DNA of 64,000 nucleotides from Kiritimatiellia bacterium (GTDB lineage Bacteria; Verrucomicrobiota; Kiritimatiellia; RFP12; DVOR01), in assembly GCA_031552845.1 (NCBI GenBank), contig JAVBMC010000028.1:72394-136393 (forward strand). The letters run 5' to 3'. Each line of letters begins with the position of its first letter. Position 1 is the first letter of the stretch. The notes below the pieces were generated by a model. It saw only the letters and a program-made list of their open reading frames with translations. It was not told where the DNA came from and ran no database searches. Of the stretch, positions 5,749 through 45,472 are shown piece by piece. Made by a program: the position numbers and the translations under genes.

Positions 5749-5847
5749 AAATTAGCTTAAAAGGTTGAAATGAAAAAATACAGTTAAATTTCTAGCAACA
5801 GTTAATACCCATATTTGTCCGGAGAGAGCAAACGTCTTGTGCTAACC

Positions 5848-6996
5848 CTAACCGTTTTCCCCAGTGAAATACTCGGCGAGGGTGTGGAGAAACTCTGGTT
5901 TGAGAGAAACGGCTAGGTTTTCTTTCTGGATAACATCCAATTTCTTGGTCAGTTTTGAGAAGCTGATGTATCCGCAGACTTTGCCGAGTGGTTTTTCGCG
6001 GAGCGAGAAGGTGGGGCGGCGGATTTCTTGCGCGACTTTGTTGCGGCGTTCATCCGGTGCCACAAGGAAAAGGTTGATGGATAGATTGGGTTGTAGTGCC
6101 AGCAGGTCACTCATGCGCAGCAGTCCGGAGTAAACCGAGGTGGTGCATTCAATCTCAAACGCAGCCAAGATAGAGTTTCCTTTGAGCCAGAGTACATCAA
6201 TCAGTTCAATTGTCCGATTCGTGGCCTCATTAAATTGTGTGGGGAGCTCTTTCACCATGCGGTCAAATGCACCTAGTTCTTTACTTTTCCATTGGCGTGA
6301 GCGGTCGTTCCGCGCAACCCACAAATCAAATCCCATCTCTTCGCCTAGCTTGAGCAAGCGGTACTGAATCTCGGTGTGCCGTGTAGTGGCAGCGTCTTCG
6401 CCATCTATTACGGTGGATTGTTTTTTAGTCTTTACTGTCTCTTCTGTTTCCGGCACAGTGACCTGTACCTTAATAGTTGCTTTTCCCTTGCGTCGTTCCG
6501 CCATGTAGGTTGGCTTATAGGCTAGCTGTTTGGGGTCAACGGCACGCCAAGTCGGATTTGTATCAGCTTTCTTGAGCAAGGAGAAAATCAAGTCACCATC
6601 GGCCGTATTTTGAACACGCTTAGGACCGCCACGGATCATACACTTATACTTATTCCGATCTTCCGGTCCCGTGTAAAATGCTACTCGTCCTTCTAATTCT
6701 TCCATGGGAACACCGTGTTCGGGCGAAAGCAAAACAAGAGGCTTTACTACAAATCGTACCGGAAAGACATCATCCTGCCAAATTCTTGATTGATCTTTTG
6801 AGCGTTCAACGACCTTTAATGCTCCAACAAGACGCTTCATGCCTCCAGTCAGATAGCACAAGAAGATATCCCCGGATCTTACTTGCTCTATCGCAGCCTC
6901 ATTGGTTTTGCTTTGACGAAATCCTGAAATCCGTGCTCCGGATTTTTGAAACTCCGCCCATGTTGTGGCGGTAAACATATTAAACCAATAGGTCAT
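5848..6996 (-). CDS. EVE/PUA-like domain protein fused to an uncharacterised C-terminal domain (possible PD-(D/E)xK-like nuclease)
   Basis: 382-aa ORF. The N-terminus MTYWFNMFTATTWAEFQKSG...IFLCYLTGG...LVGALKVV resembles EVE/PUA-like modified-base readers. The C-terminal ~150 aa (IDVLWLKGNSILAAFEIECTTS...) has no obvious family. Driven by a TGgTATAAT promoter and a GAGGAG RBS. Confidence 0.5.
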   Translation of the reverse strand: MTYWFNMFTATTWAEFQKSGARISGFRQSKTNEAAIEQVRSGDIFLCYLTGGMKRLVGALKVVERSKDQSRIWQDDVFPVRFVVKPLVLLSPEHGVPMEELEGRVAFYTGPEDRNKYKCMIRGGPKRVQNTADGDLIFSLLKKADTNPTWRAVDPKQLAYKPTYMAERRKGKATIKVQVTVPETEETVKTKKQSTVIDGEDAATTRHTEIQYRLLKLGEEMGFDLWVARNDRSRQWKSKELGAFDRMVKELPTQFNEATNRTIELIDVLWLKGNSILAAFEIECTTSVYSGLLRMSDLLALQPNLSINLFLVAPDERRNKVAQEIRRPTFSLREKPLGKVCGYISFSKLTKKLDVIQKENLAVSLKPEFLHTLAEYFTGENG

Positions 6997-7035
6997 TGTT
7001 CAGGCTCCTCAAAAGCAAACGTCGATCTAAACGCT

Positions 7036-7128
7036 CAACCATGTGCCGATTATACCACGTCATCCCCTTAAAAGCAATCCTCAAGAAATCTTTCTGCGGT
7101 GGCCTTTTGTGGACGGTGTTTCTTGATG
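7036..7128 (-). promoter_or_regulatory. Conserved ~93-bp promoter cassette, copy 1 (-35 TTGCTT, 17 bp, extended -10 TGgTATAAT), driving the EVE-domain gene
   Basis: The minus strand reads ...aagatttcttgaggATTGCTTttaaggggatgacgTGgTATAATcggcacatggttg... ending ~45 nt before the ATG at 6996. It is ~80% identical to the 8696-8788 copy. Confidence 0.6.
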
Positions 7129-7619
7129 CGACTAGCGCGATGTCCATACGCCGTCCGCGGCTGGTATTTTCAATCGGTTCATTTTTCTCGCTCTTCTTCA
7201 GCGTCTCCGTATCTGCCGGGAGTTTCTTCGTTATTTTCAGGGGTCGTATATCAGGTGATATCGTGCTCATAAATCAGGTGATGTCGTACTCGTGTATCAA
7301 GTGATATGGTACCCCGAAAGAAGAGGAGTTTGCACACCTGGCAAATAACTGCTTCAGATACCTCTCCTATCCTCCGCGCCTCCGCGTGAGTTTTTTAGGT
7401 GTCGAGTAGTTTTAGGTATTGCTGCTGGCGTTCTTTGTTTTAATGCAGTATCGGAATGATATCAAACAAAAAAAGTCTTTTAATTCCGTATTGTTCCGAA
7501 TGGATTGCCGCACATATGTGTGTTTGAGCGAGTGTTTCTTGATGGTGGATGCGGGGCTGGTGGTGCGAGTTGCGTGTTTTGAGGTACATTTTGCGGGGGA
7601 GCGAATGGAGTATGTGGGA

Positions 7620-8618
7620 TTACTCACTATTCTTGCCGCCAGTGTCTTTTTGCATTAATGCCCGAATGGCGCGGTCGAAGTCACTTTCAAGCTGCTTCAT
7701 TTCGCGTGCGCGGTAGAGCTCGAATTCTTTTTCAGCCTTTTCGATTGCCTGTTTGTGAGATATGCGTCCGGCATCTTGCAAAATCTTTCTTTTGTGGCTG
7801 AGTATTTGATTGTCGAGTGCTTCAACCCAGTCTTGCATGGTCATTGGGGCTTGTTCCAGCGCCTGAAACTCCGCAAAGTCCAAGAATTGCGATACTAAAA
7901 GATTGAGGCGCTGTAATTCAAGCTCGGAAAGGTAATTTTTCGCTATCCTCACATCGTCTTTTGTGATGTAACCGCCCTTGAAATTGGTCATGCCGACAAG
8001 CGGCTTTTCGTTGTCGACCCGCTCGTGAATCACTTCGGCGGCGGTATGCTCGTGTACTGCAAAATGCAGTTTGTTTTGCACCGTTGCAAAGAATGTTTTG
8101 GTCATATCAGAGCGCGGATCGTAATCCGTCGCCGTAGCGTAAATGTCGGTAACTTGCTGGTAAAAGTTGCGTTCGCTGCTGCGAATGTCGCGGATGCGTT
8201 GTAGGAGTTCCCGGAAATAACGGCCGCCACCGTTTTTCAAGCGATCGTCGTCAAGCGTAAACCCTTTGCGGATATACTCGTTCAGTCGCTTCGTAGCCCA
8301 TTGACGGAACTGTGTGCCGCGTAAAGATTTAACTCGGTAACCGACCGAGATTACCACATCAAGGTTATAATAGTCAACTTGATACGTTTTGCTGTCGGCA
8401 GCAGTTGTTGCAAACTTTGCAACAACTGAATCCCTCATCAATTCGCCCTCTTCAAATACGTTTTTGATATGGCGGGAAATGGTAGATTTGTCACGTTCAA
8501 ATAACTTTGCCATTCGATCGAGAGACAACCACGCAGTTTCTGCATCAAAGTGCGTATCAATTGATATTTTCCCATCTTCTGTCGTAAAAATGATCATTTG
8601 ATTTTCTTTGCCGGTCAT
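7620..8618 (-). CDS. RhuM-family virulence/defense-associated protein
   Basis: The 332-aa product begins ...IIFTTEDGKISIDTHFDAETAWLSLDRMAKLFERDKSTISRHIKNVFEEGEL, the characteristic RhuM N-terminal HTH-like region. RBS AGGAGAA. Confidence 0.8.
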   Translation of the reverse strand: MTGKENQMIIFTTEDGKISIDTHFDAETAWLSLDRMAKLFERDKSTISRHIKNVFEEGELMRDSVVAKFATTAADSKTYQVDYYNLDVVISVGYRVKSLRGTQFRQWATKRLNEYIRKGFTLDDDRLKNGGGRYFRELLQRIRDIRSSERNFYQQVTDIYATATDYDPRSDMTKTFFATVQNKLHFAVHEHTAAEVIHERVDNEKPLVGMTNFKGGYITKDDVRIAKNYLSELELQRLNLLVSQFLDFAEFQALEQAPMTMQDWVEALDNQILSHKRKILQDAGRISHKQAIEKAEKEFELYRAREMKQLESDFDRAIRALMQKDTGGKNSE

Positions 8619-8695
8619 ATCACTGTTCTCCTAATTTCCGTAGCAATGAGTTCGCCCCTGCGGCGGAGTACATGCTTGTGTTGTGTACGTACAAG

Positions 8696-8788
8696 CAACC
8701 ATGTGCGGATTATATCACGTAGTATCGTCCAAAGCAATGCTCAAGAAATCTTTTTGAGCCGGCCTTTTGGGGCGGCGTTTCCTGATGG
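8696..8788 (-). promoter_or_regulatory. Conserved ~93-bp promoter cassette, copy 2 (-35 TTGCTT, 17 bp, extended -10 TGaTATAAT), driving the RhuM gene
   Basis: The minus strand reads ...aagatttcttgagcATTGCTTtggacgatactacgTGaTATAATccgcacatggttg..., ~85 nt upstream of the RhuM ATG at 8618. Confidence 0.6.
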
Positions 8789-9039
8789 AGGATGAGCGGG
8801 CTCTATATTTGATGGCGGAAAGTAGGCTGTGACTGAAGATAGGTTTTATAATTCGGCAGATGCGGAGTGTTTGTGAAATAGAAGGTCGGTTTGGTCGCGA
8901 TGTTCATGCATTATATTCACCTTACGTTATTCTTCGCGACCGAGTCGAGCACATTAAAAGCTATAACCACGCGATTCATCCCCTATTATCTATTCTTTAT
9001 CACTTATTACTTCGCCTTTCATGTTGGAGTCCCCCGACG

Positions 9040-9420
9040 TAGCTCGGATATTTGTGTGAGCCGGGCGGGTATTTTGTCTGAGCCCAGTGTGAAAAATGTG
9101 TGAGCTGAGTCAATATTTTGTCTGAGCCGTATGGATAATTTGTGCGAGCCGGGCAAGAATTTTGTACCACGTGCCTCGCACAAATTCAACATGCGCGTTT
9201 TTCGAGCGTGTTATATCGTCCGTACTCGCGGAGCACGAATCATAATTTTGCGGGATACGTATCAGCGTACCACGCATCACGTATCATCCATTTGCGCATC
9301 ACGTGCTATCGTACTGCGGGATACGTGATATAAGTTTGTGTGTCACGTGACATCGTACCGGATGATGTGTGTCATCGTACTGCGGGACACGTGTCATCCG
9401 TTTGCAGTACACGTATCCTT
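9040..9420. repeat. AT-rich degenerate tandem repeats (TTTGTNNGAGCCGGGC units; cluster of CACGTG-centred palindromes)
   Basis: 9040-9170 holds 4-5 units ...tttgtgtgagccgggc / ttttgtctgagcc / tttgtgcgagccgggc. 9230-9420 holds repeated ...atcgtactgcgggaYacgtg..., cacgtgctat, gtcacgtgacat and gacacgtgtcat. GC content is far below the flanks. Confidence 0.6.
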
Positions 9421-10369
9421 GTGCTGAGAAGCGAAGTAATATGTAGTAGATTAGAGGCAATAAATTGAGCCGAAAATGTTATAATGCCCAATATATGTAG
9501 GTGTTTTGAAGGTAGGGAGGGGTTCACCGAAGGCAGGCGCAGAGGAGGATGGGTGTTACGCGGAGATGCTGAATAAGCGAGCTCCCAACCTGTCTCGACT
9601 TCTCCGAGTTCTTCGACTTCATCACCACTACGAATACGCAACACCGACACTGTCAACGAAAATGTAGGTGCTCCAAAAGAAGGCACAAGCCCGACTTCAC
9701 CGATTTTCGCCGACTTCATCGACATGCAAAGTAGCGCAACAGCGAACATCATAACAAGAGCAGATAATGTGAGTACAGTAAACATGATAAAAGAAAAGTT
9801 GAAAGGTGAAAGAAACGAGAGTCTCGTAGCAGGCTCGACCCAATAGCCTGTTTGTTGTTGATGGCTCCTTGGAGCTTAAGCTCTCGTATGTCGGGGGGCG
9901 GAGATTCGTATTGAACTCCGAGCCACAAGGTCCGAATCAGTGACGAGTCACTCAATGGGGTCAACAGGGATGCAGTTTAGCAGAATTAAGGAATAAGTCA
10001 AGAAGAGAAGCAATAGGTAATAAGTGATAGGTAATAAGTTGTTGAACAGGAGGGAATAGGATGAAGAAAATAAATGGAGAGGGGTAAGCAGGAAAGGCTC
10101 ACGCGGAGGTGCGGAGAGAGAGGGGAAGGGTATCCGCAGATTGCACAGATGCTCGCAGATGGGGGGTGAGAGGAAGGGAGAGAAGGGGCTAGGCGTGGTG
10201 TAGCGGTTTCGGCGAAACGCGCCCTACCTACTGACGCACGCCAAAGAATTCGCATAATGCCGGCGAGGACGTCGGGTGCTTTCAAGCGGCATAACCGGCA
10301 CGCGATTTCGTCGATTTCATAGGCTTCTGCAACAAGCCAACACACCCTGACTGATGGCGCGTCGAGGAG

Positions 10370-16603: not shown

Positions 16604-17779
16604 TTATTTGATCTTACGTTTGCCGAGGACGTGTTTGGCCAGACAATCCCGCACAGGGATATCGTAAAGTTTCAACGAGGCGTAGGCCAAGCCGATGGCG
16701 AGAATGTACACCGAGCAAGCCACGGCGATGTGCGTGCCGAGTGGGGCATCGGGGTGGTGCTTTGCCCAAGCCATTTGCAGGTAGACGAGCGGGAAGTGCG
16801 TCACGTACAATGGATAGGAGATGTCGCCAAAGAACTTACACACGGCAATGGATTTCGGGTGGGTGATATCGCTCCCCGCGCCGATGACAACGATCAGCGG
16901 GAAGAGCACGAGGATGGCGAGCGCTTCATAGGTGCCGTTCATCCACATGGCATCGGTGCCGCCGATGCGCGGCATTACGAGGATGGCCGCCACAGCCAGC
17001 GAACACCACGCAAACGCATTCTTAATGCGGATGAGTTTGTTGATGCGCGAGAGCAGGAGGCCTGCGAAGAAGGGGTAGAATAAACGCGTGAGGCCGATAT
17101 ACACTTCCGAGGGCGTGATGCTCCAGCCGCCGATGACGGTGAACGGCGCGAAACGGTCGGCCGGCAGCAGGCCGGTCACGTTGAGATTCATCGTCAGGTC
17201 AATGGTGAAGAACGCCGTGCAGGCCACAAATACCGCGAGCACCGCCTTGGAGAAGTGTCGGACGACGAGGGCGTAGAGGATGTTCGCCAGATACTCCCAC
17301 AGCAGCGTCCACGTCGCGCCATTGAGCGAGTTGGTCTCTGTCCAACCGCGGATATCCCAACGTGGCAGCGCGGGCAGCATGGTGCAGCCCAGCAAAAACA
17401 TCAGCCCCATCCGCCACCACGGCGTCGATTTAATCAGCGGGAACCCTTCGCAGTCGCCAAAGTAAAACAACAGCGCGCCGATGAACGTCCCCATCAACAG
17501 CATTGGATGCAGACGCACCAACCGCCGTTTGAAGAACTCCCATGTCGAAAGCTTGCCCCAACGGTCGTCATACGCATACCCCACCACAAACCCCGACAGC
17601 GCAAAGAAAAAATCCACCGCGAGATAACCATGATTCAGTATCTGCGTCAACGGCCCCTGCGAATAGGTCTCGAACAAATGATACGCCACGACCACCAAAG
17701 CCGCCACGCCCCGCAGACCATCCAAAATCTCATACCGCTTCTTCGAGGGCAGCGGCGTCCCTGCTACGCTACTTGACAT
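16604..17779 (-). CDS. Acyltransferase family 3 (OafA-like O-acyltransferase) membrane protein
   Basis: N-terminus YEILDGLRGVAALVVVAYHLFE and ~10 TM helices, typical of acyltransferase_3. Confidence 0.85.
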   Translation of the reverse strand: MSSSVAGTPLPSKKRYEILDGLRGVAALVVVAYHLFETYSQGPLTQILNHGYLAVDFFFALSGFVVGYAYDDRWGKLSTWEFFKRRLVRLHPMLLMGTFIGALLFYFGDCEGFPLIKSTPWWRMGLMFLLGCTMLPALPRWDIRGWTETNSLNGATWTLLWEYLANILYALVVRHFSKAVLAVFVACTAFFTIDLTMNLNVTGLLPADRFAPFTVIGGWSITPSEVYIGLTRLFYPFFAGLLLSRINKLIRIKNAFAWCSLAVAAILVMPRIGGTDAMWMNGTYEALAILVLFPLIVVIGAGSDITHPKSIAVCKFFGDISYPLYVTHFPLVYLQMAWAKHHPDAPLGTHIAVACSVYILAIGLAYASLKLYDIPVRDCLAKHVLGKRKIK

Positions 17780-18656
17780 GGGGTTTCACCTTCGGCAGCG
17801 TCCACACATCGGCTTGAGTCAGGTTTAGCCACTCCACTGCCTCGAACCAACGCGCGAGGTCGTGAGGGCGGTCGGTGAAGTTGTTTGAGCCGAACGAGAA
17901 CTTCGCGCCCATCTGCTTGGCGAGCTTCAAGAACGCGGGCTTCGGGAACAACGCCTCCGCCTGCACCTCCAACGCGACATTCTTCTCAATCGCTTTGGCG
18001 ATAATCTTACGCATACGCGCCTCTGTCCACAGCTCATCATAACGGTCGGCCAAACACGCGGGCAAGTAAGTCGGCACCGCCAAGATGCTGATCGGCTCAT
18101 CGAGAATCTGCAAGTGATGCGCCACATACTTCTCCATCCATGCCTCGGCATCATCAATCACCAACCCCGGCACAAACAACCGGCACGGCTTGCCATCCGC
18201 ATTCACCCCCATGATCAACGGATCCGCCAGCACATAATCCAGCCGCTTCAACACCGCCGGATCAATCCGCTCAAACCAATCGCGGTCATTCACCTGAATC
18301 CCCACCAACAGCGGCTTGCCTTCATTTCTTATCACTGTTTGGCATGCATCGATAAACGCCGCCACTTTCGTCGAGTCCGACAGCTCCCACTCGCGCCCAT
18401 AATTATCCAACACGCCGCTTGCAATGCCATTGATCAGCTGCCGCTCCGAGGCCTTCTGCGGCGTCATGCCGCCACGGATATGAATATGCCAATCAGTAAA
18501 CTCAATCCCCCGCGCCTGCATCCGCTTCATCTCATGCACGAACGCCGGCGACTGTGGATACAAATACCCCGCCTCCGCCGCCAGTCCCAGCGAAGCCGAC
18601 ACCACGCACCACCCCGCCGCCAAAAGCCCCCTCAATGCCCTCTGATTCATACCCAT
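17769..18656 (-). CDS. Secreted metal-dependent hydrolase, PHP/amidohydrolase-like (function uncertain)
   Basis: Signal peptide, then an HxH motif (EFTDWHIHIRGG) typical of PHP/TIM-barrel metal hydrolases. Overlaps the acyltransferase start by 11 bp. Confidence 0.45.
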   Translation of the reverse strand: MGMNQRALRGLLAAGWCVVSASLGLAAEAGYLYPQSPAFVHEMKRMQARGIEFTDWHIHIRGGMTPQKASERQLINGIASGVLDNYGREWELSDSTKVAAFIDACQTVIRNEGKPLLVGIQVNDRDWFERIDPAVLKRLDYVLADPLIMGVNADGKPCRLFVPGLVIDDAEAWMEKYVAHHLQILDEPISILAVPTYLPACLADRYDELWTEARMRKIIAKAIEKNVALEVQAEALFPKPAFLKLAKQMGAKFSFGSNNFTDRPHDLARWFEAVEWLNLTQADVWTLPKVKPHVK

Positions 18657-19539
18657 CCCTTTAAGCTACAAATATCTCGCATTGTCGCAAAAAAACGCTC
18701 CCAAAGCAAGCCCTAAATCTCAATGTGTAGCGGCAAGCTCACGCGGAGACGCAGAGGCGCGGAGAGAAAAGAGAAGAGGACACCAGCGATGAAGTCGACG
18801 AAAATCGGAGAAGTCGTGCTAAGAGAATATGGAGGGCGGCTTTGCCAAAACCGCCGACCTTTTTAATACGGCTAACGCAAACAAACTTGTGATGAACGCC
18901 TTAACCCTTCCAAAACGTTGTTTCGCCCGCTGTTCCCTGAAACGGATGGATTGGGTGCCACGTTCTTTCTTTTGCCACCATTTTTTATAGCCTCAATATG
19001 GCGTCAAAAACGAAGTGCTTTTGGGTTTGAAGGCACGTGCCTTCAACTTCAAAGGCACCTGTAATGTACTCTTACTTACACGTGTAACCAAACTTTACTT
19101 ACGCCTGTAAGTAGAACTCACTTGCACGTGCGAGTGAAGTTGAATACACCTCGATTTTGCATAGTGTAAAACAGAGAGTAAGGCTGGATCTTTAAATTAG
19201 GGAGTGTAGAGTTGCAAGGAGGCTTGTTTTGGCACGTTCGATTCCTTGATTGGTATCCTGTTACCTGTTTCTGCTGTTTGTTCGCTGAGCAATTGAAGTG
19301 AAAACTCAAAACCGGGCTGTTTGGGGGCATGTTGGAGAAGGTGATCGCGGTGCCCATGGAAGCAAGTTCGCAGGGTGTGCGATTTTGAATGTCTTGTCTT
19401 TTCTGCTTGCTATTGGCGGTTGGGTCTGTTACACTTGAGATTGTTGGAGGGATTATGCCGCGTGTCGGTAGGTGTGCATTGCGTGTCGGTTTTTGAGGCG
19501 GGGACGGTTAGAGAATTTTTCGATAAAGGATGGCACAGG

Positions 19540-20973
19540 ATGAGTTTGAAGAAACGGTTTATCTGTCTGCTTGTTTTCTTGTTGTGTTGCGGGAGCGGTT
19601 TGCTGGTGTTGAATGGACCGGTGATTCGGGCAGATTCGGTGGCGTCTGCGAATGAGGAGGTGAGGCCGATTGATTTTATTGTGCGGACAACGGTGGATTA
19701 TTTTGAGGCGGTGCGGCAATTCCGTGTGTTGGCACCGGAGCTTGTTGCAGGGGAGAGGTTCAGTGCAGAGACGGCATCGGCGAATCTGTTCTTGTATTAT
19801 ATTACATCGCAGTATGGGTTGCATTGGCATACGCCGGAGTTTGATAGTCTGGTTTTGAGTGAGTTTAAAAAGACCTATCCGCCTATTACGCGCGAGGTAC
19901 TTGAGGCTGTGCGCGTGCGTTTGGATGAGACGCCGCCGCCTAGGCCTTGGCCGCGTGAGTGGGTGTTGAAATCAGAGTTAGCTATGCCGGAGTATTTTTT
20001 GCCGCATCCGCGTATTACGCTTATCAATGACAAAACGGTGCTGATTTATTATAAGATCTGTCAGGTTGACGATAGTGCATGGGAGGGGGTTAAGGAGGAA
20101 TTTCTGGTGTTCTTTGCAGATGGGCAGCGTCCACCTCAGGCAGTTGCTGCGGCAGAGAAGCAGGAGTTTTTACCAGTGATAGATTTGAAACTGAAGGAGC
20201 GCACGAATGGCTTCTTCCAGCCTCGTCGTTCAGGTCCTGATCTTTTGTGGAGAACGATGGCCAAGTATTGCTGTGTATTGGCGGATAGCTATCATGAACT
20301 GTTATTGGATGGATTGCAATGCGGGAATCCACAGGTTGAGGAGGGTGCATTTAATTCCTTGCACCATCGGTTTGTCTCGGCGTATTATTTTAATCAACGT
20401 GCGCTGCCGCCGAAGATCGATTATTTGAATCTTTGCTGCATGGCGTTGTCCTCAAAATTGCACGTTGAAGAGAATGAAAAGGTTGTATCTTTTTGGGCAC
20501 TTGGCAACCCGTTCACGATTAAGCATATCAAGCATCGTAATTGTTTTTGTCAAACGGATGAGTTTCTTTCGTTTGGGAAGCGGTTAAAGTTGAAGCTTGA
20601 TCTGTTTTGTTTTATGTGGCCTCGTGTAGAGAAACGTTGCGTTGTGGTTCCGCTGACGCGCGAGGACCTCAAGGCTGAAGTATTGTTAAACTTTCAGTTT
20701 CTGGGCAAATGCTCGGACGTGTGGAATGCGCTGTTTGAACAATTGAATGTCGGCCTGCGAATATCGAATAAGATGGGGGGCGTATTGCTGCCTGCCGAGG
20801 CGATTGAAGATTTTAAGCTGCATCCGCCGGTCATTATTCAGAATTCGCGTGATGTACAAGTGGATTCGCAAGTAAAGAAAGCTCAGAAAGCATTTGATAA
20901 GACAGCTGAAAAGATATCTCCAGCGACGCAGAATGACGGGCAGAAAATATCGTCGGGGCAATTAGAAAAGTAA
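19540..20973 (+). CDS. Secreted hypothetical protein (orphan, low GC)
   Basis: In-frame ATG at 19540 preceded by RBS aaagga. Signal peptide MSLKKRFICLLVFLLCCGSGLLVLNG. ~477 aa with no recognisable domain. The region is ~45% GC against ~60% in the flanks. Confidence 0.6.
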   Translation: MSLKKRFICLLVFLLCCGSGLLVLNGPVIRADSVASANEEVRPIDFIVRTTVDYFEAVRQFRVLAPELVAGERFSAETASANLFLYYITSQYGLHWHTPEFDSLVLSEFKKTYPPITREVLEAVRVRLDETPPPRPWPREWVLKSELAMPEYFLPHPRITLINDKTVLIYYKICQVDDSAWEGVKEEFLVFFADGQRPPQAVAAAEKQEFLPVIDLKLKERTNGFFQPRRSGPDLLWRTMAKYCCVLADSYHELLLDGLQCGNPQVEEGAFNSLHHRFVSAYYFNQRALPPKIDYLNLCCMALSSKLHVEENEKVVSFWALGNPFTIKHIKHRNCFCQTDEFLSFGKRLKLKLDLFCFMWPRVEKRCVVVPLTREDLKAEVLLNFQFLGKCSDVWNALFEQLNVGLRISNKMGGVLLPAEAIEDFKLHPPVIIQNSRDVQVDSQVKKAQKAFDKTAEKISPATQNDGQKISSGQLEK

Positions 20974-20981
20974 AGGAGCGT

Positions 20982-21395
20982 ATGATGAAGAAACTAGGGT
21001 TTGTGTTATTGGTGCTTTCCACACTCGGCGTTTTTGTGTGTTGTTGGGCCTCGGACGTTTTTTTGAAATCAGTTGGCTGGGAGGGGCTGTCGCATGAACA
21101 ACAGTTTTTGATTGATCGATTGTGCAACTTGATGTGGATTCCACCCGCGCTCTGTATGCTTGGGGGACTTCTCATTACGGCAGGGAGTCTTCGGATGAAG
21201 TCCAATGCCGGACGGTGGTGGATGCTGATTGCCACGTGTAGTATGCTCGCGTTGGGATTGTCCGGGTGGCTCGCTTTGTTTATCAATAGCGTGCTGTTTG
21301 CGTTCTTCCTGACGTTCTATCCCAAAGAGAAAGGGACGTTGACCGATGGTTCGGTTTTTCTGGACGGCATGCAATCCGATAGCGGATGCCGATAA
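20982..21395 (+). CDS. Small membrane protein (hypothetical)
   Basis: 137 aa with 3-4 predicted TM helices. RBS aaggag 8 nt upstream. Follows the previous gene by 8 bp, so probably the same operon. Confidence 0.55.
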   Translation: MMKKLGFVLLVLSTLGVFVCCWASDVFLKSVGWEGLSHEQQFLIDRLCNLMWIPPALCMLGGLLITAGSLRMKSNAGRWWMLIATCSMLALGLSGWLALFINSVLFAFFLTFYPKEKGTLTDGSVFLDGMQSDSGCR

Positions 21396-21428
21396 GGCTG
21401 GTGATCGAGTGTTTTTGAAAGGGGTGTT

Positions 21429-21818
21429 GTGGTGCTTGCTTCGTTCGGTTATTTGCTCTGGGCCGTGTATGCTCCCTTATTCTTACTTTTGGCCTGTGCG
21501 TGGGTGTTTCGTCGTTATCTGACGCTGACGCGTATTCTCTGCATCTGTTGGCTTATTATTTGCCTGTTGCTAGTGGTTTGTGAAGTGGGTTGTAATTCCA
21601 TTGTGCCTGTTCGAAGGGTGCGTTGGTTTTCTGTTTTATTGCAGAGCCTATTGCCTATCTTGTTGCCGGCTATCGTCATCATCGTGACTGCTAAAAAAAA
21701 GCATGGATGGCTGCATGGATTGGCGACGATATTGTGGCTAGTCCCTCCTTCTGTTCTTTTGAGCGAATGGATTTTTAACTACTTTGGCTTCATCAGTCGT
21801 TATCAGGTTATTTGGTAG
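21429..21818 (+). CDS. Small membrane protein (hypothetical)
   Basis: 129 aa, hydrophobic (~4 TM). GTG start. Third gene of the low-GC operon. Confidence 0.45.
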   Translation: MVLASFGYLLWAVYAPLFLLLACAWVFRRYLTLTRILCICWLIICLLLVVCEVGCNSIVPVRRVRWFSVLLQSLLPILLPAIVIIVTAKKKHGWLHGLATILWLVPPSVLLSEWIFNYFGFISRYQVIW

Positions 21819-21948
21819 TCTGTTCGTGGAGAGATTTTATGGTCAATGATTGGAGATAGCGATGAAAGCATATTGGTTGTGTTGCGGCGTCCGGTGCCGA
21901 GGGCTGAGGATGGGGCTTTTTGGTGGGGTGGAGAATTGGTAAATGTGA

Positions 21949-24465
<2,517 letters not shown>

Positions 24466-24715: not shown

Positions 24716-25696
24716 ATGAAAACGATACATTGGGTTGTAGTGTGTTTGATGAGCACGATGGCGGGTGCCAGTTACGGCGCAGACGGTAATTGGACGAACT
24801 TCGCGGCGGGACCGCATAGTTGGTTTGATGTCGATTGTTGGTCGAATGGGATTGTCGCCAATGGTTCGGGCACTACCATGGCGTTTGTCTCGAGAACGGC
24901 AGGAGATATCACGATTCTCATTGATGATGATCTGACATTGGGTGGAATAATATCCAATACAGTGATTGTTTCGCAAACGTTATTGGGTGTAGATGGACAT
25001 CGCCTTACTGTCGAGAATGAGGGGACGGCTATTTTTAATCTTGGAGCATCTCAGAATAATCCGAAGATTTGGGTGCCGTTGGTTTTGTCAAATACGGATC
25101 TCCAACTGACAAAAACTGTCTCCGGTTCTCGTAGTAATACAATATTGCTGGGAGGCGGCATCAGTGGTGTTGGAAACGTGGAGCTGTATTTGGAAACATC
25201 AGCAGCAGAACGATATTATCCCGTGCAATATATCGTGACAAATACACCGCTGACATTTACCGGAACATTGACTTTGACCGGGGTGTTGATTGGTACATTA
25301 ACAGAGAGGACCTTGCTCACAAATGCTTGGTTTGAAATGTATACGACCAATCTGTGCAGTGGCGGAACTATGATTAATGGCGCGTATGTTAAAGCGAACA
25401 CAGAGGGGGCTTTTGGTACTAAGTCCGTGAGGTTGACATCCACTGCTCGATTGGATTTGCAGAAGTCGCTTGTGTTGGAGGGCGGAAGTGATTTATATTT
25501 GATGTCGGATGCGAATGGTTCTTCCAAGGTTTATCTAGGTGTCGCTGACTCGACGAACGTGGTGCAGTGTTTGTATTTGAATGGTGTGAAGCAGTCGACG
25601 GGTATTTATAGTGCTGGGACGCATCCGCAGTATTTCGCTGAAGCCGGAGTGTTGAAGGTGAAGGGCGAGAAGCAGACTGTGCTGTTGTTGAACTAA
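24716..25696 (+). CDS. Secreted protein with autotransporter-associated beta-strand repeats
   Basis: Signal peptide MKTIHWVVVCLMSTMAGASYGADG. Repeats of the type LQLTKTVSGSRSNTILLGGGISGVGNVELY. 326 aa. Promoter-like TTGCAA-17-TATCAT upstream. Confidence 0.65.
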   Translation: MKTIHWVVVCLMSTMAGASYGADGNWTNFAAGPHSWFDVDCWSNGIVANGSGTTMAFVSRTAGDITILIDDDLTLGGIISNTVIVSQTLLGVDGHRLTVENEGTAIFNLGASQNNPKIWVPLVLSNTDLQLTKTVSGSRSNTILLGGGISGVGNVELYLETSAAERYYPVQYIVTNTPLTFTGTLTLTGVLIGTLTERTLLTNAWFEMYTTNLCSGGTMINGAYVKANTEGAFGTKSVRLTSTARLDLQKSLVLEGGSDLYLMSDANGSSKVYLGVADSTNVVQCLYLNGVKQSTGIYSAGTHPQYFAEAGVLKVKGEKQTVLLLN

Positions 25697-29920: not shown

Positions 29921-29949
29921 TTGCCTTATCGGTGGAGGTGTGTTATACT
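29921..29949 (+). promoter_or_regulatory. Sigma70-like promoter (-35 TTGCCT, 17 bp, -10 TgtTATACT) for the paralog operon
   Basis: ttgccttatcggtggaggtgtgttatact lies ~120 nt upstream of the ATG at 30071. Confidence 0.5.
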
Positions 29950-30070
29950 CCGTATGTTTTCGACAGACAGAAAAGCGAGAGGACATATAGTGCGTTTGGC
30001 GGGGGGCTGCTGGCGCGCGGAATCTGCCGAAAGCCATGGGGTAACTGTACCTTATTATAAAGGCTGTATT

Positions 30071-33000
30071 ATGAAACGAAATGTATTGTTAGTCTCCGCT
30101 TTAGCGCTTGTTTCAATGTGCCATGGTTTTACGATGCCTGTGTGGGAGGTTGGGACGATTACCGGTGATACCGACGTCATTTCCGAAGGGACAACGGTTA
30201 CGGCGTATGCAGTTGGCGGCGCGACGGAGGTGAATGGCGTGAGTTTTGTGAAGACGCCGAACAACGGTAATACGAGCGTTCAATATTGGGGGACTTATTT
30301 GACCGTCAATATCGGCATTCGGGGAACGCGCGCTTATTCGGCTACACGCGGTACCCCAAGCGGAATGAGTGAGGCTTATGTTACGATGTTGCGGGGAGAG
30401 CTGATGGCGTATACGGATGCGAACTCGACCTTTGAGGCGGAGGGAGTGATTCAGCTGCAGGGCTTGATTCCGGGCGCGCAATATATTTTGCAGGTGTGGT
30501 GTAATGATAGCTCAGGGTCGTCATCCGCCTCGCGGCAGACGATGTTGATTGCGAATATTTTTGATGCAACAGTGACGGTGCGGCAGAACATGGAGGCGAA
30601 GGCAGGAGGGGCGGGGCAGTATGCTGTTTTGCGCTTTACGGCCCCGGCGACTGCGCTGACGATCGATTTGACGGCTCCGCATGTGATCGGGGCAACGGAT
30701 GCTATTTTGATTTCCGCGATTCAGTTGCGGGAGGTTGCTGCTACGACGCCGAATGCCTATGCGTGGAGCGGTGGCGTTAATAATGTTTGGGCGGCGGATG
30801 ATTTAAACTGGGGCGGCGATGGGGCGCAGGCGCCTTGGGCAGTTGGCAGCGGCACGGAGGCGATGGCGTTGATTTATCCGCCGCAACCCACCACCACCAC
30901 GGTATTGCGGGTGGAGTCGACCATTGAAGCGGGAGTGGTGTCTTCAGTGGGCAGTACAGTTTTGCAAGGCAACGGGATGTTGAATACCACAGCTGCCGTG
31001 GTTGATAGCGATCTGCTTGCAGATGTGCGCGTGCAAACGGATGTGTTGCAAAAACATGGCGGCGGCGTGTTGTCGTTTGTCAATCCGTTAGGGCATGCAG
31101 TAGGTGTACTGGCGGTTTCAAACGGTGCGGTGCGCTTGTCGCCACTGCCGATATTTGGCGGTCTGACGACCCACTTGGATGCGTCCGATATCACGAGCAT
31201 GGATGTTGACGCGAATGGCGGCGTGGTAGCGTGGCGGTCGGTGAATGGAGCTCCGGCGCGTTATACGTTCCCGACTGCCGATGCAGCCACGTTTGTTCCG
31301 CCGGTGTATGCGGCGGATGCGTTTGGCGGACGCGGTGGCGTACGGTTTGGTTCCGAGGGGCCGTCAAAGTTGACGTCGACAGTAACAACAAATGCCCGCA
31401 GCGTTTTCTTGGTGATGAAGCTGAGTGTATTCAAGGACTATCAAGAGGTCTGGGGGATTAATGCGCAAAACAGTGATACGATCCGCGGTATACGGTTGTG
31501 GGGAGCAGGCTCGCCGAACAACATGAAGTGGTTTACTGACCGTGGCAATACAACCGGCGGGAATGGAGTATTGAACGATGAAGAGCTGTTCTGGGTAGAT
31601 GGAGTTTGGAGCGAAAATTATCCATTGGCGTCGACAACGGCAGCGCAGGTGTTGAGTTTGCAAACGAGCGGCGGCGCGGTGGGTAAGTATTTTGCGATGG
31701 GGTCGTATTTTTATGCGTCGGCTAATCGGACTGGACGGTATCTGCAAGGTGATGTGGCGGAATTGATTGTGTATGACCGGTTGTTGTCGAGTGCTGAACG
31801 GCAGGTCATTGAACAGTATTTGATTGCCAAGTGGGCGGGAGCTGAGCGGCAGAGTCTGGCGGCGAATATTTTGTCGGACTCCATGAAAGTGATTGTGGAG
31901 GCGCAGGGGACTTTATCGCTGGATGGCGTTTCGCAAGAGGTGAGCGGCTTGTCTGGAGACGGCACGGTTGCCGCTACGGCTCCGGCGGAGTTGGTCGTGA
32001 ACACAACACAGGATGCGGTGTTTAATGGGGCATTTAAAGGGGCGTTAAATGTCCGCAAGCAAGGCACGGCGGCGTTGAAATTGTTGGGCAGCAGCACTCA
32101 CAGTGGCATGTTGGATATCCGTGAGGGCAGCGTCATCGCGGGGCAGGAGTTCCCTACGGAGGGTTTGTTGTACCGCTTGGATGCGGGTCGCCCAGAAACG
32201 TTGACTGTAAATGCATCCGGGCAGGTGTCGGCATGGGCTGACTCGCAAGCCGACAGCACTGTGGTGTTCAGTCAGGCCAACGCGGCGACTCAGCCGGATT
32301 ATGTGCCAAGTGCTTTTAACGGCCAGGGTGGCGTGCGTTTTGGTGCAGAAGGGAAAGTAACCTCGTTGGAATATGACCAGAGCACTGTGAATAAGACGGT
32401 GTTTCTGGTGGTGTATACCGAGTCCACCACGGTTGAGTTTGCGGGCGTGTGGGGGAGTTGTGCCAGTGGACAAAATGTAGGATTCCGTTCAAGCGGAACT
32501 GCAACCTCAGGCGGGTATGGCGCTTCAAACCAATGGGGATTCGCAAAGGGGAGTTCCGGCGACTTTGTTCCAGATAACAATAACGGGTCTTTCCGGACAA
32601 ATGGTGTTGCGGTGGGTAATGTAGGTCCCGTTATTCCGGAGTTTGAGGTACAGGTAATCGCACTGAATCGTAAGACGGCGTCTACCTTTGCCCAGACGGC
32701 TGTCGGCGAATATTATTGGGAGGGCGAACGGCCTTACATGGGTATTATCGGCGAAGTGATTGTTTACGACCGTGACCTGACGGCGGACGAGTTTGCTCAA
32801 GTAGAGGGGCTGTTGATGTTGAAGTGGGGGGCACGAAAGGAGACTGCGGCATCGCACTTGTCGTCCTCGTCGGGGTTGGTAATGACAAAGGGTACGGTCT
32901 TGGATTTGAAGGGGAGCGATCAGGCGGTGCGCAGTTACAGCGGTGCCGGGCAAGTGGTGAATGGGCGTTTGATTGTCAGCGAACAGGTCACGGCTACGGG

Positions 33001-33277
33001 GGATGTCGGTATATTCGGATTACCGCAAACTATTCATGTCACGTCGCCTGTTGGCTTGATCAGCATATCTGGTGCCGGAGATTTGAGTACTGTGACCGTT
33101 ACTGTTGATACGGACAGTCTCAAGATCGGCCAGCGCTACCCGATTCTCTTGTGTGATGGTGAGTTTACAGGACTGCCCGTTGTGTCGGGCGTGAATCCGG
33201 ATGTCTGGATGATTCGGCGTATAGGCGATGTGGTTGAGCTGTTCTCCAAAGGCGGCATGGTATTGCAGTTGTTTTAA
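30071..33277 (+). CDS. Giant secreted protein, paralog 1: N-terminal jelly-roll-like domain, autotransporter-associated beta-strand repeats, two LamG-like (concanavalin A-like) domains, conserved C-terminal module
   Basis: The start is set at the internal Met (30071) that precedes a signal peptide MKRNVLLVSALALVSMCHG. LamG signatures VAELIVYDRLLSSAERQVIEQYLIAKW and IGEVIVYDRDLTADEFAQVEGLLMLKW. Beta-strand repeat VRKQGTAALKLLGSSTHSGMLDIREGSV. C-terminus ...ELFSKGGMVLQLF. Confidence 0.8.
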   Translation: MKRNVLLVSALALVSMCHGFTMPVWEVGTITGDTDVISEGTTVTAYAVGGATEVNGVSFVKTPNNGNTSVQYWGTYLTVNIGIRGTRAYSATRGTPSGMSEAYVTMLRGELMAYTDANSTFEAEGVIQLQGLIPGAQYILQVWCNDSSGSSSASRQTMLIANIFDATVTVRQNMEAKAGGAGQYAVLRFTAPATALTIDLTAPHVIGATDAILISAIQLREVAATTPNAYAWSGGVNNVWAADDLNWGGDGAQAPWAVGSGTEAMALIYPPQPTTTTVLRVESTIEAGVVSSVGSTVLQGNGMLNTTAAVVDSDLLADVRVQTDVLQKHGGGVLSFVNPLGHAVGVLAVSNGAVRLSPLPIFGGLTTHLDASDITSMDVDANGGVVAWRSVNGAPARYTFPTADAATFVPPVYAADAFGGRGGVRFGSEGPSKLTSTVTTNARSVFLVMKLSVFKDYQEVWGINAQNSDTIRGIRLWGAGSPNNMKWFTDRGNTTGGNGVLNDEELFWVDGVWSENYPLASTTAAQVLSLQTSGGAVGKYFAMGSYFYASANRTGRYLQGDVAELIVYDRLLSSAERQVIEQYLIAKWAGAERQSLAANILSDSMKVIVEAQGTLSLDGVSQEVSGLSGDGTVAATAPAELVVNTTQDAVFNGAFKGALNVRKQGTAALKLLGSSTHSGMLDIREGSVIAGQEFPTEGLLYRLDAGRPETLTVNASGQVSAWADSQADSTVVFSQANAATQPDYVPSAFNGQGGVRFGAEGKVTSLEYDQSTVNKTVFLVVYTESTTVEFAGVWGSCASGQNVGFRSSGTATSGGYGASNQWGFAKGSSGDFVPDNNNGSFRTNGVAVGNVGPVIPEFEVQVIALNRKTASTFAQTAVGEYYWEGERPYMGIIGEVIVYDRDLTADEFAQVEGLLMLKWGARKETAASHLSSSSGLVMTKGTVLDLKGSDQAVRSYSGAGQVVNGRLIVSEQVTATGDVGIFGLPQTIHVTSPVGLISISGAGDLSTVTVTVDTDSLKIGQRYPILLCDGEFTGLPVVSGVNPDVWMIRRIGDVVELFSKGGMVLQLF

Positions 33278-33306
33278 ACATAGGTGAGAAATATAGGAAG
33301 CAGATT

Positions 33307-36552: not shown

Positions 36553-36576
36553 TTGTAACTGAGAAGGACTAAAAAG

Positions 36577-39786: not shown

Positions 39787-39804
39787 TGAATTGATGGTGG
39801 TTAA

Positions 39805-39840
39805 GCCCGCAGGTATTCGCAAAATACCTGCGGGCTCTTG
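39805..39840 (+). terminator. Rho-independent terminator after the paralog operon
   Basis: aagcccgcaggtattcgcaaaatacctgcgggctcttgtt: a 12-bp perfect stem gcccgcaggtat/atacctgcgggc plus a T-rich tail. Confidence 0.75.
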
Positions 39841-39855
39841 TTAGACGGGGATGGA

Positions 39856-44878: not shown

Positions 44879-44989
44879 ATTCTCTCCTTGCGTTTTGGAA
44901 AAAGAAGAGAAGGGGAAGACACCAGCGTTCATCGCGGGGTTTTCCACACGCTCTCCATTCTCCGTGGGTGTGTGTTCGGGCGGGGCAGG

Positions 44990-45155
44990 TCTTCTGGCTC
45001 GGGCTTATCCACGGCGCCTTCCCGGGATGACTCCCAGTGGCTTGATGCCGTAGCTATATTGCCCTCACAGCGGCGGGACCGCGAAGGTTTTGCACCTTCT
45101 TCCCTTTTCACCGGCGTTTCCGCCGGACCTCGTCCGATACGCCATTTGGCGTATG
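44990..45155 (-). promoter_or_regulatory. Cobalamin (B12) riboswitch in the nrdDG leader
   Basis: The minus strand reads ...ggtgaaaagggaagaaggtgcaaaaccttcgcggtcccgccgctgtgagggc...ggcatcaagccactgggagtcatcccgggaaggcgcc. Core GGTGaAAAGGGAA...GGTGCAAAACC...CCCGCCgCTGT and B12 box AAGCCACTGGGA...CCGGGAAGGC are both present. Confidence 0.75.
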
Positions 45156-45424: not shown

Positions 45425-45472
45425 CACGTTCCTGTTACGGGGCTAAAAGAGGTGTGTGAGCCAAGTGAGGGA

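What the first reader, a model, noticed from the sequence alone, without database searches (positions are those of the whole stretch)
18656..21830. Second low-GC island: 0.9 kb of palindrome-rich non-coding DNA plus a three-gene operon of orphan secreted or membrane proteins
Between the PHP-hydrolase gene and gyrB the GC falls to ~45%. 18700-19500 carries the shared motifs described above. It also has three CACGTG-centred palindromes: gaaggcacgtgccttc (19027-19042, a perfect 16-mer), ttacacgtgtaa and cacttgcacgtgcgagtg. Then come a 477-aa signal-peptide protein and two small polytopic membrane proteins, all without detectable homology by eye. The composition and the shared repeats with the 9-10 kb block suggest horizontal acquisition. 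The gene content, a secreted protein plus two small membrane partners, would fit an effector/immunity or surface module.
Basis: partly seen in the sequence, partly recalled or inferred. Interest (0 to 1): 0.5.

Follow-up and report, generated by a model that had tools for sequence, protein, structure and literature searches.

The report
Orphan envelope operon behind phased palindromes
Upstream of gyrB, a poorly sampled Kiritimatiellia-type bacterium carries three real but almost unique genes for envelope proteins, possibly a defence against toxins from other bacteria, and they sit behind a stretch of evenly spaced DNA palindromes whose purpose is unknown.

Summary
An 883-nt non-coding stretch (18657-19539) is followed by a tight operon: a 477-aa signal-peptide protein, then 137-aa and 129-aa membrane proteins. 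GC is 46-50% against 56-62% in the flanks. All three ORFs pass a codon/frame test that every other gene in the window passes.

The 477-aa protein matches no curated family. In about 15 billion proteins it has one distant relative, P0127. P0127 starts 1 nt after the stop of an RHS toxin gene, which is the slot of an immunity gene.

Recent horizontal acquisition is not shown. The GC-normalised tetranucleotide signature and the third-position GC skew look native. There is no integrase, tRNA or flanking repeat. About a third of the genes in the window are equally GC-poor, and no relative is close enough for a synteny test.

The palindromes are the odd part. Five dyad sites lie 22-24 nt apart, three with CACGTG cores but different arms. 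They echo a strict 22-nt ACGT array in the 9-kb block (two such CACGTG clusters: 0 of 2000 shuffles). They are not parS, oriC or any Rfam family. An operator array for an unknown dimeric DNA-binding protein is the most likely reading. Interest is modest.

The parts
18657..19539 (.). 883-nt non-coding region between the divergent 295-aa gene (-) and p477 (+)
   Evidence: No ORF with convincing coding frame. No Rfam family at E<=5 apart from chance miRNA hits. No tRNA.
18737..18767 (+). Purine-rich motif GCTCACGCGGAGACGCAGAGGCGCGGAGAGA, shared with 10097-10119 and 7371-7390 (rc)
   Evidence: A 27-nt exact match in Sphingobium plasmids is judged to be chance or low complexity.
18787..18820 (+). 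34-nt motif made of three 9-10-nt units (GANGAAGTC). Copies lie at 9688-9721 (rc, 91%) and 9596-9623 (rc, ~90% with one indel)
   Evidence: The same pattern in metagenomes is a generic 9-mer microsatellite or coding repeat.
19015..19058 (.). Dyad site 1: a 44-nt imperfect palindrome (82%) containing the perfect 20-mer TTGAAGGCACGTGCCTTCAA (19027-19046), with its CACGTG core at 19034. On the minus strand it is followed by UUCGUUUUUG
19052..19063 (.). Dyad site 2 (degenerate): AAGGCACCTGTA, with CACCTG in place of CACGTG, 22 nt from site 1
19076..19087 (.). Dyad site 3: perfect 12-mer TTACACGTGTAA
19095..19112 (.). Dyad site 4 (degenerate core): TACTTAC-GCCT-GTAAGTA, with 7-nt arms, 22 nt from site 3
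19118..19137 (.). Dyad site 5: TCACTTGCACGTGCGAGTGA, a 20-nt palindrome with one mismatch
19540..20973 (+). p477: 477-aa protein with an N-terminal signal or anchor sequence (hydrophobic segment 7-25), 14 Cys, pI 7.5. A two-member family with P0127
20982..21395 (+). m137: small polytopic membrane protein. The real start is probably the second ATG at 20985, giving 136 aa as in the public gene call. AGGAG lies 6 nt upstream of that ATG
21429..21818 (+). m129: small polytopic membrane protein with a GTG start. It is not similar to m137
9050..9430 (.). Companion array in the 9-kb block: 17 consecutive 22-nt units. Six are TTTGTSTGAGCC units. They are followed by ACGT-core units at 9257, 9279, 9301, 9323, 9345, 9389 and 9411, including TGTCACGTGACA and GACACGTGTC

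Best explanation
This is a resident operon of three envelope proteins that is restricted to this lineage. It is preceded by a long regulatory region in which five dyad-symmetric sites, 22-24 nt apart, serve as operators for an unidentified dimeric DNA-binding protein. That protein probably also binds the 22-nt phased ACGT array in the 9-kb block.

The most likely job of the proteins is protection of the cell envelope against toxins delivered by other bacteria, that is, an 'orphan' immunity-type cluster with no toxin of its own. p477 would sit in the periplasm and bind an incoming toxin domain. The two small membrane proteins would act like the small polytopic immunity proteins that block membrane-targeting toxins.

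Shown: the ORFs have a real coding signature and operon spacing; there is a signal sequence and there are membrane segments; the protein family is extremely rare; its one relative lies directly after an RHS toxin gene; the dyad sites are phased and non-random.

Inferred: the immunity function, the roles of the two membrane proteins, protein binding to the dyads, and co-regulation with the 9-kb block.
For: Real genes. In a codon model trained on the other genes, the annotated frame wins with margins of 0.22-0.25, the same as the 33 of 33 control genes. Gaps between the genes are 8 and 33 nt, with Shine-Dalgarno motifs. p477 aligns colinearly with P0127 at both ends, through the motifs NLFxYYxxSQYxLHWxxPExD and WNxLFExxNxxLR (E 1.5e-8 over the whole library).

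Immunity context. In L087 the gene ending 1 nt before P0127 matches the end of the RHS core (TIGR03696, 63 bits against a cutoff of 32.5) and then carries about 174 aa of unknown C-terminal domain. According to PMC3150448, rhs genes are followed by immunity genes, and the RhsI proteins tested there neutralise their cognate toxin domains. P0127 and p477 both carry N-terminal export signals, which fits a periplasmic site of action. Extreme rarity and fast divergence are typical of immunity genes. That statement is my own knowledge, supported only by the titles of PMC10539506 and PMC12247911 as listed, which I did not read further.

Dyad array. Sites are centred at 19036, 19058, 19081, 19103 and 19127. 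The arms differ but each is self-complementary. Arms of at least 5 nt occur at 4 of the 7 CACGTG sites in the two blocks and at 0 of the 14 elsewhere. Six of the nine ACGT-centred palindromes of 10 nt or more in the window lie in the two blocks, which make up 4% of the sequence. The CACGTG clustering reached 0 of 2000 shuffles.

Resident rather than newly acquired.
Against: The immunity reading rests on one homolog in one 2.2-kb contig. P0127 (434 aa) and p477 (477 aa) are much larger than typical RhsI proteins. No toxin, RHS or secretion-system gene lies next to p477 or anywhere in the 64 kb. The AlphaFold models are unusable (pLDDT 36-37). The dyad sites lie 400-520 nt from either start codon, which is far for ordinary operators, and no candidate regulator was identified. 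No sequence from a related genome exists to test whether the sites are conserved.
Confidence: 0.3

Rival explanations
1. These are ordinary lineage-specific envelope or surface proteins with no link to toxin immunity, for example niche adaptation or envelope maintenance. The position of P0127 after an RHS gene is incidental.
For: About a third of the window's genes are similarly GC-poor with atypical codon usage, and several of them have no or only marginal Pfam matches: 24716-25696 and the four ~1100-aa paralogs at 29921-42195. There is no toxin gene near p477. The proteins are larger than usual immunity proteins.
Against: It does not explain why the only relative among about 15 billion proteins abuts an RHS toxin domain with a 1-nt gap.
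Confidence: 0.3
2. This is a remnant of a mobile element. The phased dyad and iteron arrays in both low-GC blocks are the replication-origin, partition-site or phage-type operator sequences of degraded integrated elements, and the three genes are its cargo.
For: A 22-nt phased array (17 units in the 9-kb block, 5 sites here) is the geometry of iteron origins, lambda-type operators and F sopC-like centromeres (plus my own knowledge). The 9-kb block sits next to type I restriction-modification genes, a restriction-enzyme-like gene and RhuM. GC is low and the genes are orphans.
Against: No Rep, ParA/ParB, integrase or relaxase was found among the window proteins scanned. There are no flanking repeats and no tRNA. 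There is no similarity to plasmids, phages or viral contigs. The tetranucleotide signature and GC3 skew of 19-22 kb are native.
Confidence: 0.17
3. The palindromes act as RNA, not DNA. They form a hairpin-rich small RNA, or a leader/terminator, transcribed from the intergenic region. On the minus strand the transcript would end at the 44-nt hairpin followed by UUCGUUUUUG.
For: The fold of 19005-19145 is far more stable than shuffles on both strands (z -6.1 and -5.3). A U-run follows hairpin 1 on the minus strand. Different stems around the same apical CACGTG resemble covarying hairpins.
Against: Perfect dyad symmetry gives equal stability on both strands, as expected for DNA sites. No Rfam match. 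The companion array in the 9-kb block is not unusually stable as RNA (z -1.8) and is mostly direct repeats. The terminator scan did not call the hairpin.
Confidence: 0.15
4. The ORFs are spurious, and the region is non-functional AT-drifted DNA.
For: There are no homologs for m137 or m129. Antisense ORFs of more than 125 codons also occur here.
Against: The frame test is positive for all three. p477 has a colinear remote homolog. Operon spacing and ribosome-binding sites are present. The hydrophobic segments are coherent.
Confidence: 0.03

Closest known systems
RhsI-type and orphan immunity genes of polymorphic toxin systems (PMC3150448; the orphan-immunity papers PMC10539506 and PMC12247911 were seen as titles/abstracts only)
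   Same: The only homolog of p477 occupies the gene slot directly after an RHS C-terminal toxin domain. The family is extremely rare and fast-diverging. Both proteins have export signals that fit envelope-acting toxins. The three genes form a tight cluster with no toxin of their own, as in orphan immunity arrays.
   Different: There is no toxin gene or toxin fragment upstream of p477. The proteins are 434-477 aa, not about 100-200 aa. No T6SS, RHS or CDI genes occur in the 64 kb. No functional or structural evidence exists.
Small polytopic immunity proteins of pore-forming colicins and membrane-targeting CDI toxins (own knowledge)
   Same: m137 and m129 are about 130-aa proteins with 3-4 membrane segments, encoded next to a putative immunity-type gene.
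   Different: There is no sequence similarity to any known family, and they are not similar to each other. The analogy rests on size and topology only.
Chromosomal parS centromere, TGTTNCACGTGAAACA (own knowledge)
   Same: A palindrome of about 16 nt centred on CACGTG, clustered in intergenic DNA near gyrB.
   Different: Only the 6-nt core matches. The best window matches to parS have 3 mismatches, lie elsewhere, and are at chance frequency. The three sites have different arms, whereas parS copies within a genome are near-identical.
Iteron origins, lambda-type operator arrays and the F sopC 43-bp repeats (own knowledge)
   Same: Repeated protein-binding-type sites with centres 22-24 nt apart (a 44-46-nt super-period), partly dyad-symmetric, in AT-richer non-coding DNA.
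   Different: No initiator, repressor or partition gene is adjacent. The sequences between the sites are not conserved in this block. The sites differ from each other outside the core.

Membership tests
Rhs/polymorphic-toxin immunity protein (RhsI-like) | Encoded immediately downstream of the toxin's variable C-terminal domain | tested here: not met
   This holds for the homolog P0127: the RHS core end is matched by TIGR03696 at E 2.4e-17, the upstream stop is at 712 and the ATG at 714. It does not hold for p477 itself: 883 nt of non-coding DNA and a divergent gene lie upstream, and tblastn with the toxin finds nothing there. At best p477 is an orphan copy.
Rhs/polymorphic-toxin immunity protein (RhsI-like) | Specifically binds and neutralises the cognate toxin domain | not testable with these tools
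   This needs co-expression or binding assays. The AlphaFold models are too poor for docking.
Genomic island (recent horizontal acquisition) | Atypical composition relative to the host genome | tested here: inconclusive
   GC and GC3 are low and the codon log-likelihood is low. But the GC-normalised tetranucleotide correlation is 0.74-0.76, equal to the window median, GC3 skew matches the replichore, and many other genes in the window share the composition.
Genomic island (recent horizontal acquisition) | Mobility hallmarks: integrase, tRNA or other attachment site, flanking direct repeats | tested here: not met
   No tRNA in 64 kb. No flanking direct repeats. No integrase or recombinase among the proteins scanned.
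Genomic island (recent horizontal acquisition) | Absent from the same site in close relatives | tested here: inconclusive
   The closest gyrB loci (70-78% identity) lack the genes but share no synteny on either side. The 80 loci holding homologs of the 295-aa gene are never next to gyrB.
ParB-parS chromosomal centromere | 16-bp site matching TGTTNCACGTGAAACA | tested here: not met
   No match with 2 or fewer mismatches. The 3-mismatch matches are at chance and lie elsewhere. The dyad arms here are GAAGG, TTA and CACTTG.
Chromosomal replication origin (oriC) | A cluster of DnaA boxes at a sign change of the GC skew | tested here: not met
   No DnaA-box-like 9-mer lies in 18657-19539. The skew is positive on both sides, with only a local dip at 16.6-18.7 kb.
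Iteron-type plasmid or phage origin | An array of repeats at about 22-nt phasing next to an initiator gene | tested here: inconclusive
   The phasing is present: 5 sites here and 17 units at 9050-9430. No Rep-like gene is adjacent.
Known RNA families (Rfam 15) | A covariance-model match at or near the gathering score | tested here: not met
   The only hits are two miRNA models at E 2-4, far below their gathering scores.

The most novel reading that the evidence does not exclude
The phased CACGTG/ACGT dyad arrays are a previously undescribed cis-element class. They would be a common control or segregation-type site, bound by one dimeric protein, that ties together two accessory islands of a Kiritimatiellia chromosome: a restriction-modification/RhuM defence island and an orphan envelope-immunity operon built on a new family of periplasmic anti-RHS immunity proteins.
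Probability: 0.1. Interest if true: 0.6.

Novelty: new member of a known kind. Interest (0 to 1): 0.3.

Why it matters
If the immunity reading holds, p477 and P0127 define a new and unusually large family of exported immunity proteins against an uncharacterised RHS toxin domain. This would be in the PVC group of bacteria, where interbacterial antagonism is barely studied. The phased dyad arrays would point to a regulator that couples two accessory islands. If the reading fails, the locus is one more example of GC-poor lineage-specific genes in a sparsely sampled lineage. It would also be a caution that low GC plus orphan status does not demonstrate recent horizontal transfer.

Tried and rejected
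- parS centromere: only the CACGTG core is shared.
- oriC: no DnaA boxes in the spacer and no sign change in the skew.
- Known RNAs and tRNAs: none.
- Integron attC or recombinase-associated immunity arrays: no recombinase was found and no R''/R' motifs were seen by eye.
- Promoter and terminator scan: counts are at shuffle level. The only clear promoter-like site (21959-21987) belongs to gyrB.
- Structure prediction of p477, alone and with P0127: pLDDT 35.8 and 36.8. The models are unusable, so no fold search was run.
- PDB sequence searches for the family profile, the RHS C-terminal domain and the 295-aa neighbour: nothing.
- Viral-contig scans: the 16-mer palindrome gave 9 chance hits in coding DNA, the 30-mer gave none, and the three proteins gave none.
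- Plasmid and phage searches with the spacer DNA and with the proteins: only a 27-nt purine-rich match inside a Sphingobium repABC region, judged to be chance.
- The single metagenome scan, spent on the shared 30-mer, returned generic 9-mer tandem or coding repeats from high-GC organisms. It showed that the motif is of a low-complexity kind.
- Synteny test through the 295-aa gene: 80 loci, none with gyrB or mutL nearby.
- Stop-free-stretch shuffling test: not discriminating, because the skewed strand composition also yields antisense ORFs.
- Literature search for bacterial CACGTG-binding regulators: nothing useful.

Full report
WHAT IS THERE. The window is chromosomal DNA of a Kiritimatiellia-type bacterium in the Planctomycetota-Verrucomicrobiota-Chlamydiota (PVC) group. 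Its GyrB (22018-24465) is at most 78% identical to anything else in the protein collection, and the named best hits are Kiritimatiellia MAGs. The other genes scanned are housekeeping: mutL, nrdD behind a cobalamin riboswitch, aroKB, asd, pfk, aspartate kinase and homoserine dehydrogenase.

The finding region has these parts:
- A 295-aa gene on the minus strand (17769-18656).
- 883 nt with no convincing ORF (18657-19539).
- Three plus-strand genes: p477 (19540-20973), m137 (20982-21395, probably starting at the second ATG, 20985) and m129 (21429-21818).
- 199 nt with a good sigma-70-like promoter match (21959-21987), and then gyrB.

The 'PHP hydrolase' label for the 295-aa gene could not be verified. 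It has no Pfam, NCBIfam or PDB sequence match, although it has at least 80 homologs at 46-64% identity scattered through PVC MAGs.

GC is 0.46-0.50 in 1-kb windows, against 0.56-0.62 on either side. The three genes have GC3 of 0.53, 0.61 and 0.52, against 0.70-0.85 for core genes, and a lower codon log-likelihood.

The palindromes are real. The first is a perfect 20-mer, TTGAAGGCACGTGCCTTCAA (19027-19046). It is the longest perfect palindrome in the 64 kb and is nested in a 44-nt imperfect palindrome. TTACACGTGTAA lies at 19076-19087. TCACTTGCACGTGCGAGTGA lies at 19118-19137 and has one mismatch.

The shared repeats with the 9-10 kb block also exist. There is a 34-nt stretch at 91% identity (18787-18820 against 9688-9721, reverse complement), a third copy with an indel at 9596-9623, and a purine-rich GCTCACGCGGAG... 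motif.

ARE THE GENES REAL? Yes, as far as sequence can tell.
- A codon model trained on the other genes picks the annotated frame out of six for 33 of 33 control genes. It also does so for p477, m137 and m129, with margins (0.22-0.25) in the normal range. The small ORFs inside the spacer score near zero or negative.
- The three genes are 8 and 33 nt apart, each with a Shine-Dalgarno-like motif.
- p477 has one N-terminal hydrophobic segment (residues 7-25), followed by a soluble, Cys-rich body (14 Cys).
- m137 and m129 each have three clear hydrophobic segments, possibly four, and are not similar to one another.

HOW RARE ARE THEY?
- p477 hits no model in Pfam, NCBIfam, PADLOC or PHROGs, and no PDB sequence.
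- In the 5.8-billion-cluster collection it finds only itself.
- Two public short-read (Logan) contigs from run SRR23967709 carry genes of this region. The one compared, L081, is 100% identical over 4336 nt; L086 encodes the identical 295-aa protein. They come from the same strain.
- An exhaustive HMMER pass over 1.84 billion cluster representatives of about 15 billion proteins found one further protein, P0127 (434 aa, E 1.5e-8). The match is colinear at both ends. It covers an N-terminal export signal, the motif NLFxYYxxSQYxLHWxxPExD, and a C-terminal WNxLFExxNxxLRxxxKxGxxLLP.
- A profile of the two proteins finds nothing more.
- m137 and m129 have no hits in the four curated libraries, in plasmids, in the viral collection or in 1.1 Mb of PVC loci, and no cluster-mates at 90% identity.
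- AlphaFold2 gave unusable models of p477, both alone and with P0127 (pLDDT 35.8 and 36.8), so no fold search was attempted.

THE ONE FUNCTIONAL CLUE. P0127 lies on a 2.2-kb, 35%-GC contig (L087). The gene before it runs off the contig start and stops 1 nt before P0127's ATG. Its first 62 residues (...[35 protein letters not shown]...) match the end of the RHS repeat-associated core (TIGR03696, E 2.4e-17, 63 bits against a cutoff of 32.5). About 174 residues of unassignable C-terminal domain follow.

This is the standard layout of an RHS polymorphic toxin: conserved core, sharp demarcation, variable toxin domain. In such loci the next gene encodes the cognate immunity protein (PMC3150448). P0127 therefore sits in an immunity slot. 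Both P0127 and p477 carry export signals, which fits a toxin that acts in the envelope.

By extension, p477, which has no toxin gene next to it, would be an orphan immunity-type gene. The two small polytopic proteins downstream resemble, in size and topology only, the membrane immunity proteins of pore-forming toxins. The proteins are far larger than usual RhsI proteins. No RHS, T6SS or CDI gene is in the window. I put the reading at about 0.3.

WAS IT HORIZONTALLY ACQUIRED? This is not shown.

The nearest gyrB loci (70-78% identity; L082-L085) have entirely different neighbours on both sides, and none has the three genes. The 80 loci with the 295-aa gene never have gyrB or mutL nearby.

The composition tests split:
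- Raw GC and codon usage are atypical.
- After GC normalisation, the tetranucleotide signature of 19-22 kb correlates with the window mean as well as the median segment does (0.74-0.76 against 0.74). The 1-12 kb block, which really does look foreign, scores 0.58-0.70.
- Third-position GC skew of the three genes (+0.61, +0.31, +0.28) agrees with the G-rich plus strand of this replichore. The two genes just upstream, the acyltransferase (16604-17779) and the 295-aa gene, have reversed skew and are the better candidates for a recent insertion or inversion.
- No tRNA, integrase or flanking direct repeat is present.
- About a third of the window's genes are equally GC-poor. Several of them lack Pfam matches: the gene at 24716-25696 and the four ~1100-aa paralogs at 29921-42195. 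Low GC therefore looks like a property of this genome's lineage-specific genes rather than a mark of one island.

THE NON-CODING REGION IS THE STRANGEST PART. CACGTG is not over-represented in the window (21 against 21.2 expected). However, seven of the 21 copies lie in the two non-coding blocks: at 19034, 19079 and 19125 (45 and 46 nt apart), and at 9168, 9300, 9344 and 9388 (the last three 44 nt apart). Two clusters of three within 100 nt were never seen in 2000 dinucleotide shuffles, and random placement gives p about 1.5e-5. No such cluster occurs in 1.1 Mb of PVC loci.

Halfway between the strong sites of this block lie degenerate ones: AAGGCACCTGTA at about 19058, and TACTTAC-GCCT-GTAAGTA at 19095-19112. 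Five dyad sites therefore follow each other at 22, 23, 22 and 24 nt. Their arms differ (GAAGG, TTA, TACTTAC, TCACTTG), but each is self-complementary. Arms of at least 5 nt occur at 4 of the 7 CACGTG sites in the two blocks and at 0 of the 14 elsewhere.

The 9-kb block contains a strict 22-nt register over 17 units. Six are TTTGTSTGAGCC units, followed by ACGT-core units at 9257, 9279, 9301, 9323, 9345, 9389 and 9411. No phased ACGT chain of four or more exists in 1.2 Mb of other loci.

What the arrays are not:
- Not parS: only the 6-nt core is shared.
- Not an origin: there are no DnaA boxes and no sign change in the skew.
- Not any Rfam family.

As RNA, the 19005-19145 segment folds far better than shuffles on both strands (z -6.1 and -5.3). 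That is what DNA dyad symmetry predicts. The 9-kb array does not fold unusually well (z -1.8).

A spacing of two helical turns between dyad-symmetric sites is the geometry of arrays bound by dimeric proteins, such as phage operators, iteron origins and plasmid centromeres. I therefore read the sites as operators for an unidentified dimeric protein that also recognises the 9-kb array. Two rivals remain. One is a relic of mobile-element origin or partition sites. The other is a hairpin-rich small RNA ending at the 44-nt hairpin and its U-run on the minus strand. The distance of 400-520 nt to either start codon, and the lack of any sequence from a related genome, keep this open.

THE OTHER SHARED MOTIFS ARE WEAK LINKS. 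The 34-nt repeat is three 9-10-nt units (GANGAAGTC). The one metagenome scan, spent on it, returned only generic 9-mer tandem repeats or coding repeats from unrelated high-GC organisms. A 27-nt exact match of the purine-rich motif inside a Sphingobium repABC region is most simply chance.

VERDICT. The described features are real. The three genes form an authentic, nearly unique envelope operon. An immunity-type function is the best available guess, resting on thin evidence. Recent horizontal transfer is not supported by the tests that could be run. The phased CACGTG dyad arrays shared with the 9-kb block are statistically solid and unexplained. Interest is modest (0.3). The locus would rise in value if the arrays recur genome-wide, or if P0127 is shown to neutralise its neighbouring RHS toxin.

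Noticed in passing
window 9050-9430 (within the non-coding block 8619-10369): There are seventeen consecutive 22-nt units. Six are TTTGTSTGAGCC iterons. ACGT-core units then follow in exact 22-nt register, including the palindromes GATACGTATC, TGTCACGTGACA and GACACGTGTC. The layout is iteron-, operator- or centromere-like, with no Rep or Par gene adjacent.
   Followed up: partly
window 7036-7128 and 8696-8787: A 93-nt direct repeat (81% identity) brackets the RhuM-family gene (7620-8618). It may be a cassette boundary or a duplicated promoter region.
   Followed up: no
window 2066-8618: This is a low-GC defence-type island: type I restriction-modification specificity (2066-3241) and methylase (3232-5748) subunits, a type II restriction-enzyme-like gene (5848-6996), and RhuM. 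Its GC-normalised tetranucleotide signature is the most atypical in the window.
   Followed up: partly
window 16604-18656: The acyltransferase-3 gene and the 295-aa gene have third-position GC skew opposite to all neighbouring minus-strand genes (+0.03 and +0.49 against -0.38 to -0.86). This produces a local dip in the GC skew and suggests a recent inversion or insertion of this pair. The same two genes are also adjacent in a Kiritimatiellia MAG (L071).
   Followed up: partly
L086 and L081 (Logan run SRR23967709) against window 18951-19066: Two contigs of the same strain from an independent assembly end at window 18951 and start at 19066. They bracket the 44-nt palindrome. The cause could be a coverage drop at the hairpin or population heterogeneity; this was not resolved.
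   Followed up: no
L087 2-712: This is the 3' end of an RHS toxin gene (TIGR03696 core end) with an about 174-aa C-terminal domain that matches no Pfam, NCBIfam or PDB sequence. It may be an uncharacterised toxin domain, probably acting in the envelope because the downstream protein is exported.
   Followed up: partly
window 18790-18867 and 9718 downwards (minus strand): Both copies of the 34-nt shared motif begin with ATG and would encode MKS(T/A)KIGEV(V/G)L. In the 18.8-kb copy this is a 25-codon ORF with a GAGGA motif upstream and a weak hairpin plus T-run downstream. The coding test is negative, so it is probably not a gene.
   Followed up: partly
window 29921-42195: Four tandem paralogous genes of about 785-1118 aa (DNA similarity 66-78% between copies) lie here. 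One has a passenger-associated-transport-repeat match just below Pfam's cutoff (25.9 bits against 27). It looks like a lineage-specific surface-protein family expanded in tandem. GC3 is as low as in the finding region.
   Followed up: no
window 45410-45427: A perfect 18-nt palindrome, GTGAGTAACGTTACTCAC, lies in the spacer between the cobalamin riboswitch/nrdD leader (44967-45147, minus strand) and the stop codon of the aroK-aroB fusion gene (45473-47056, minus strand).
   Followed up: no
whole window: DnaA-box-like 9-mers (TTATCCACA with up to 1 mismatch) are twice as frequent as in shuffles (19 against 9.9; 0 of 100 shuffles reach 19). They are dispersed, not clustered.
   Followed up: no
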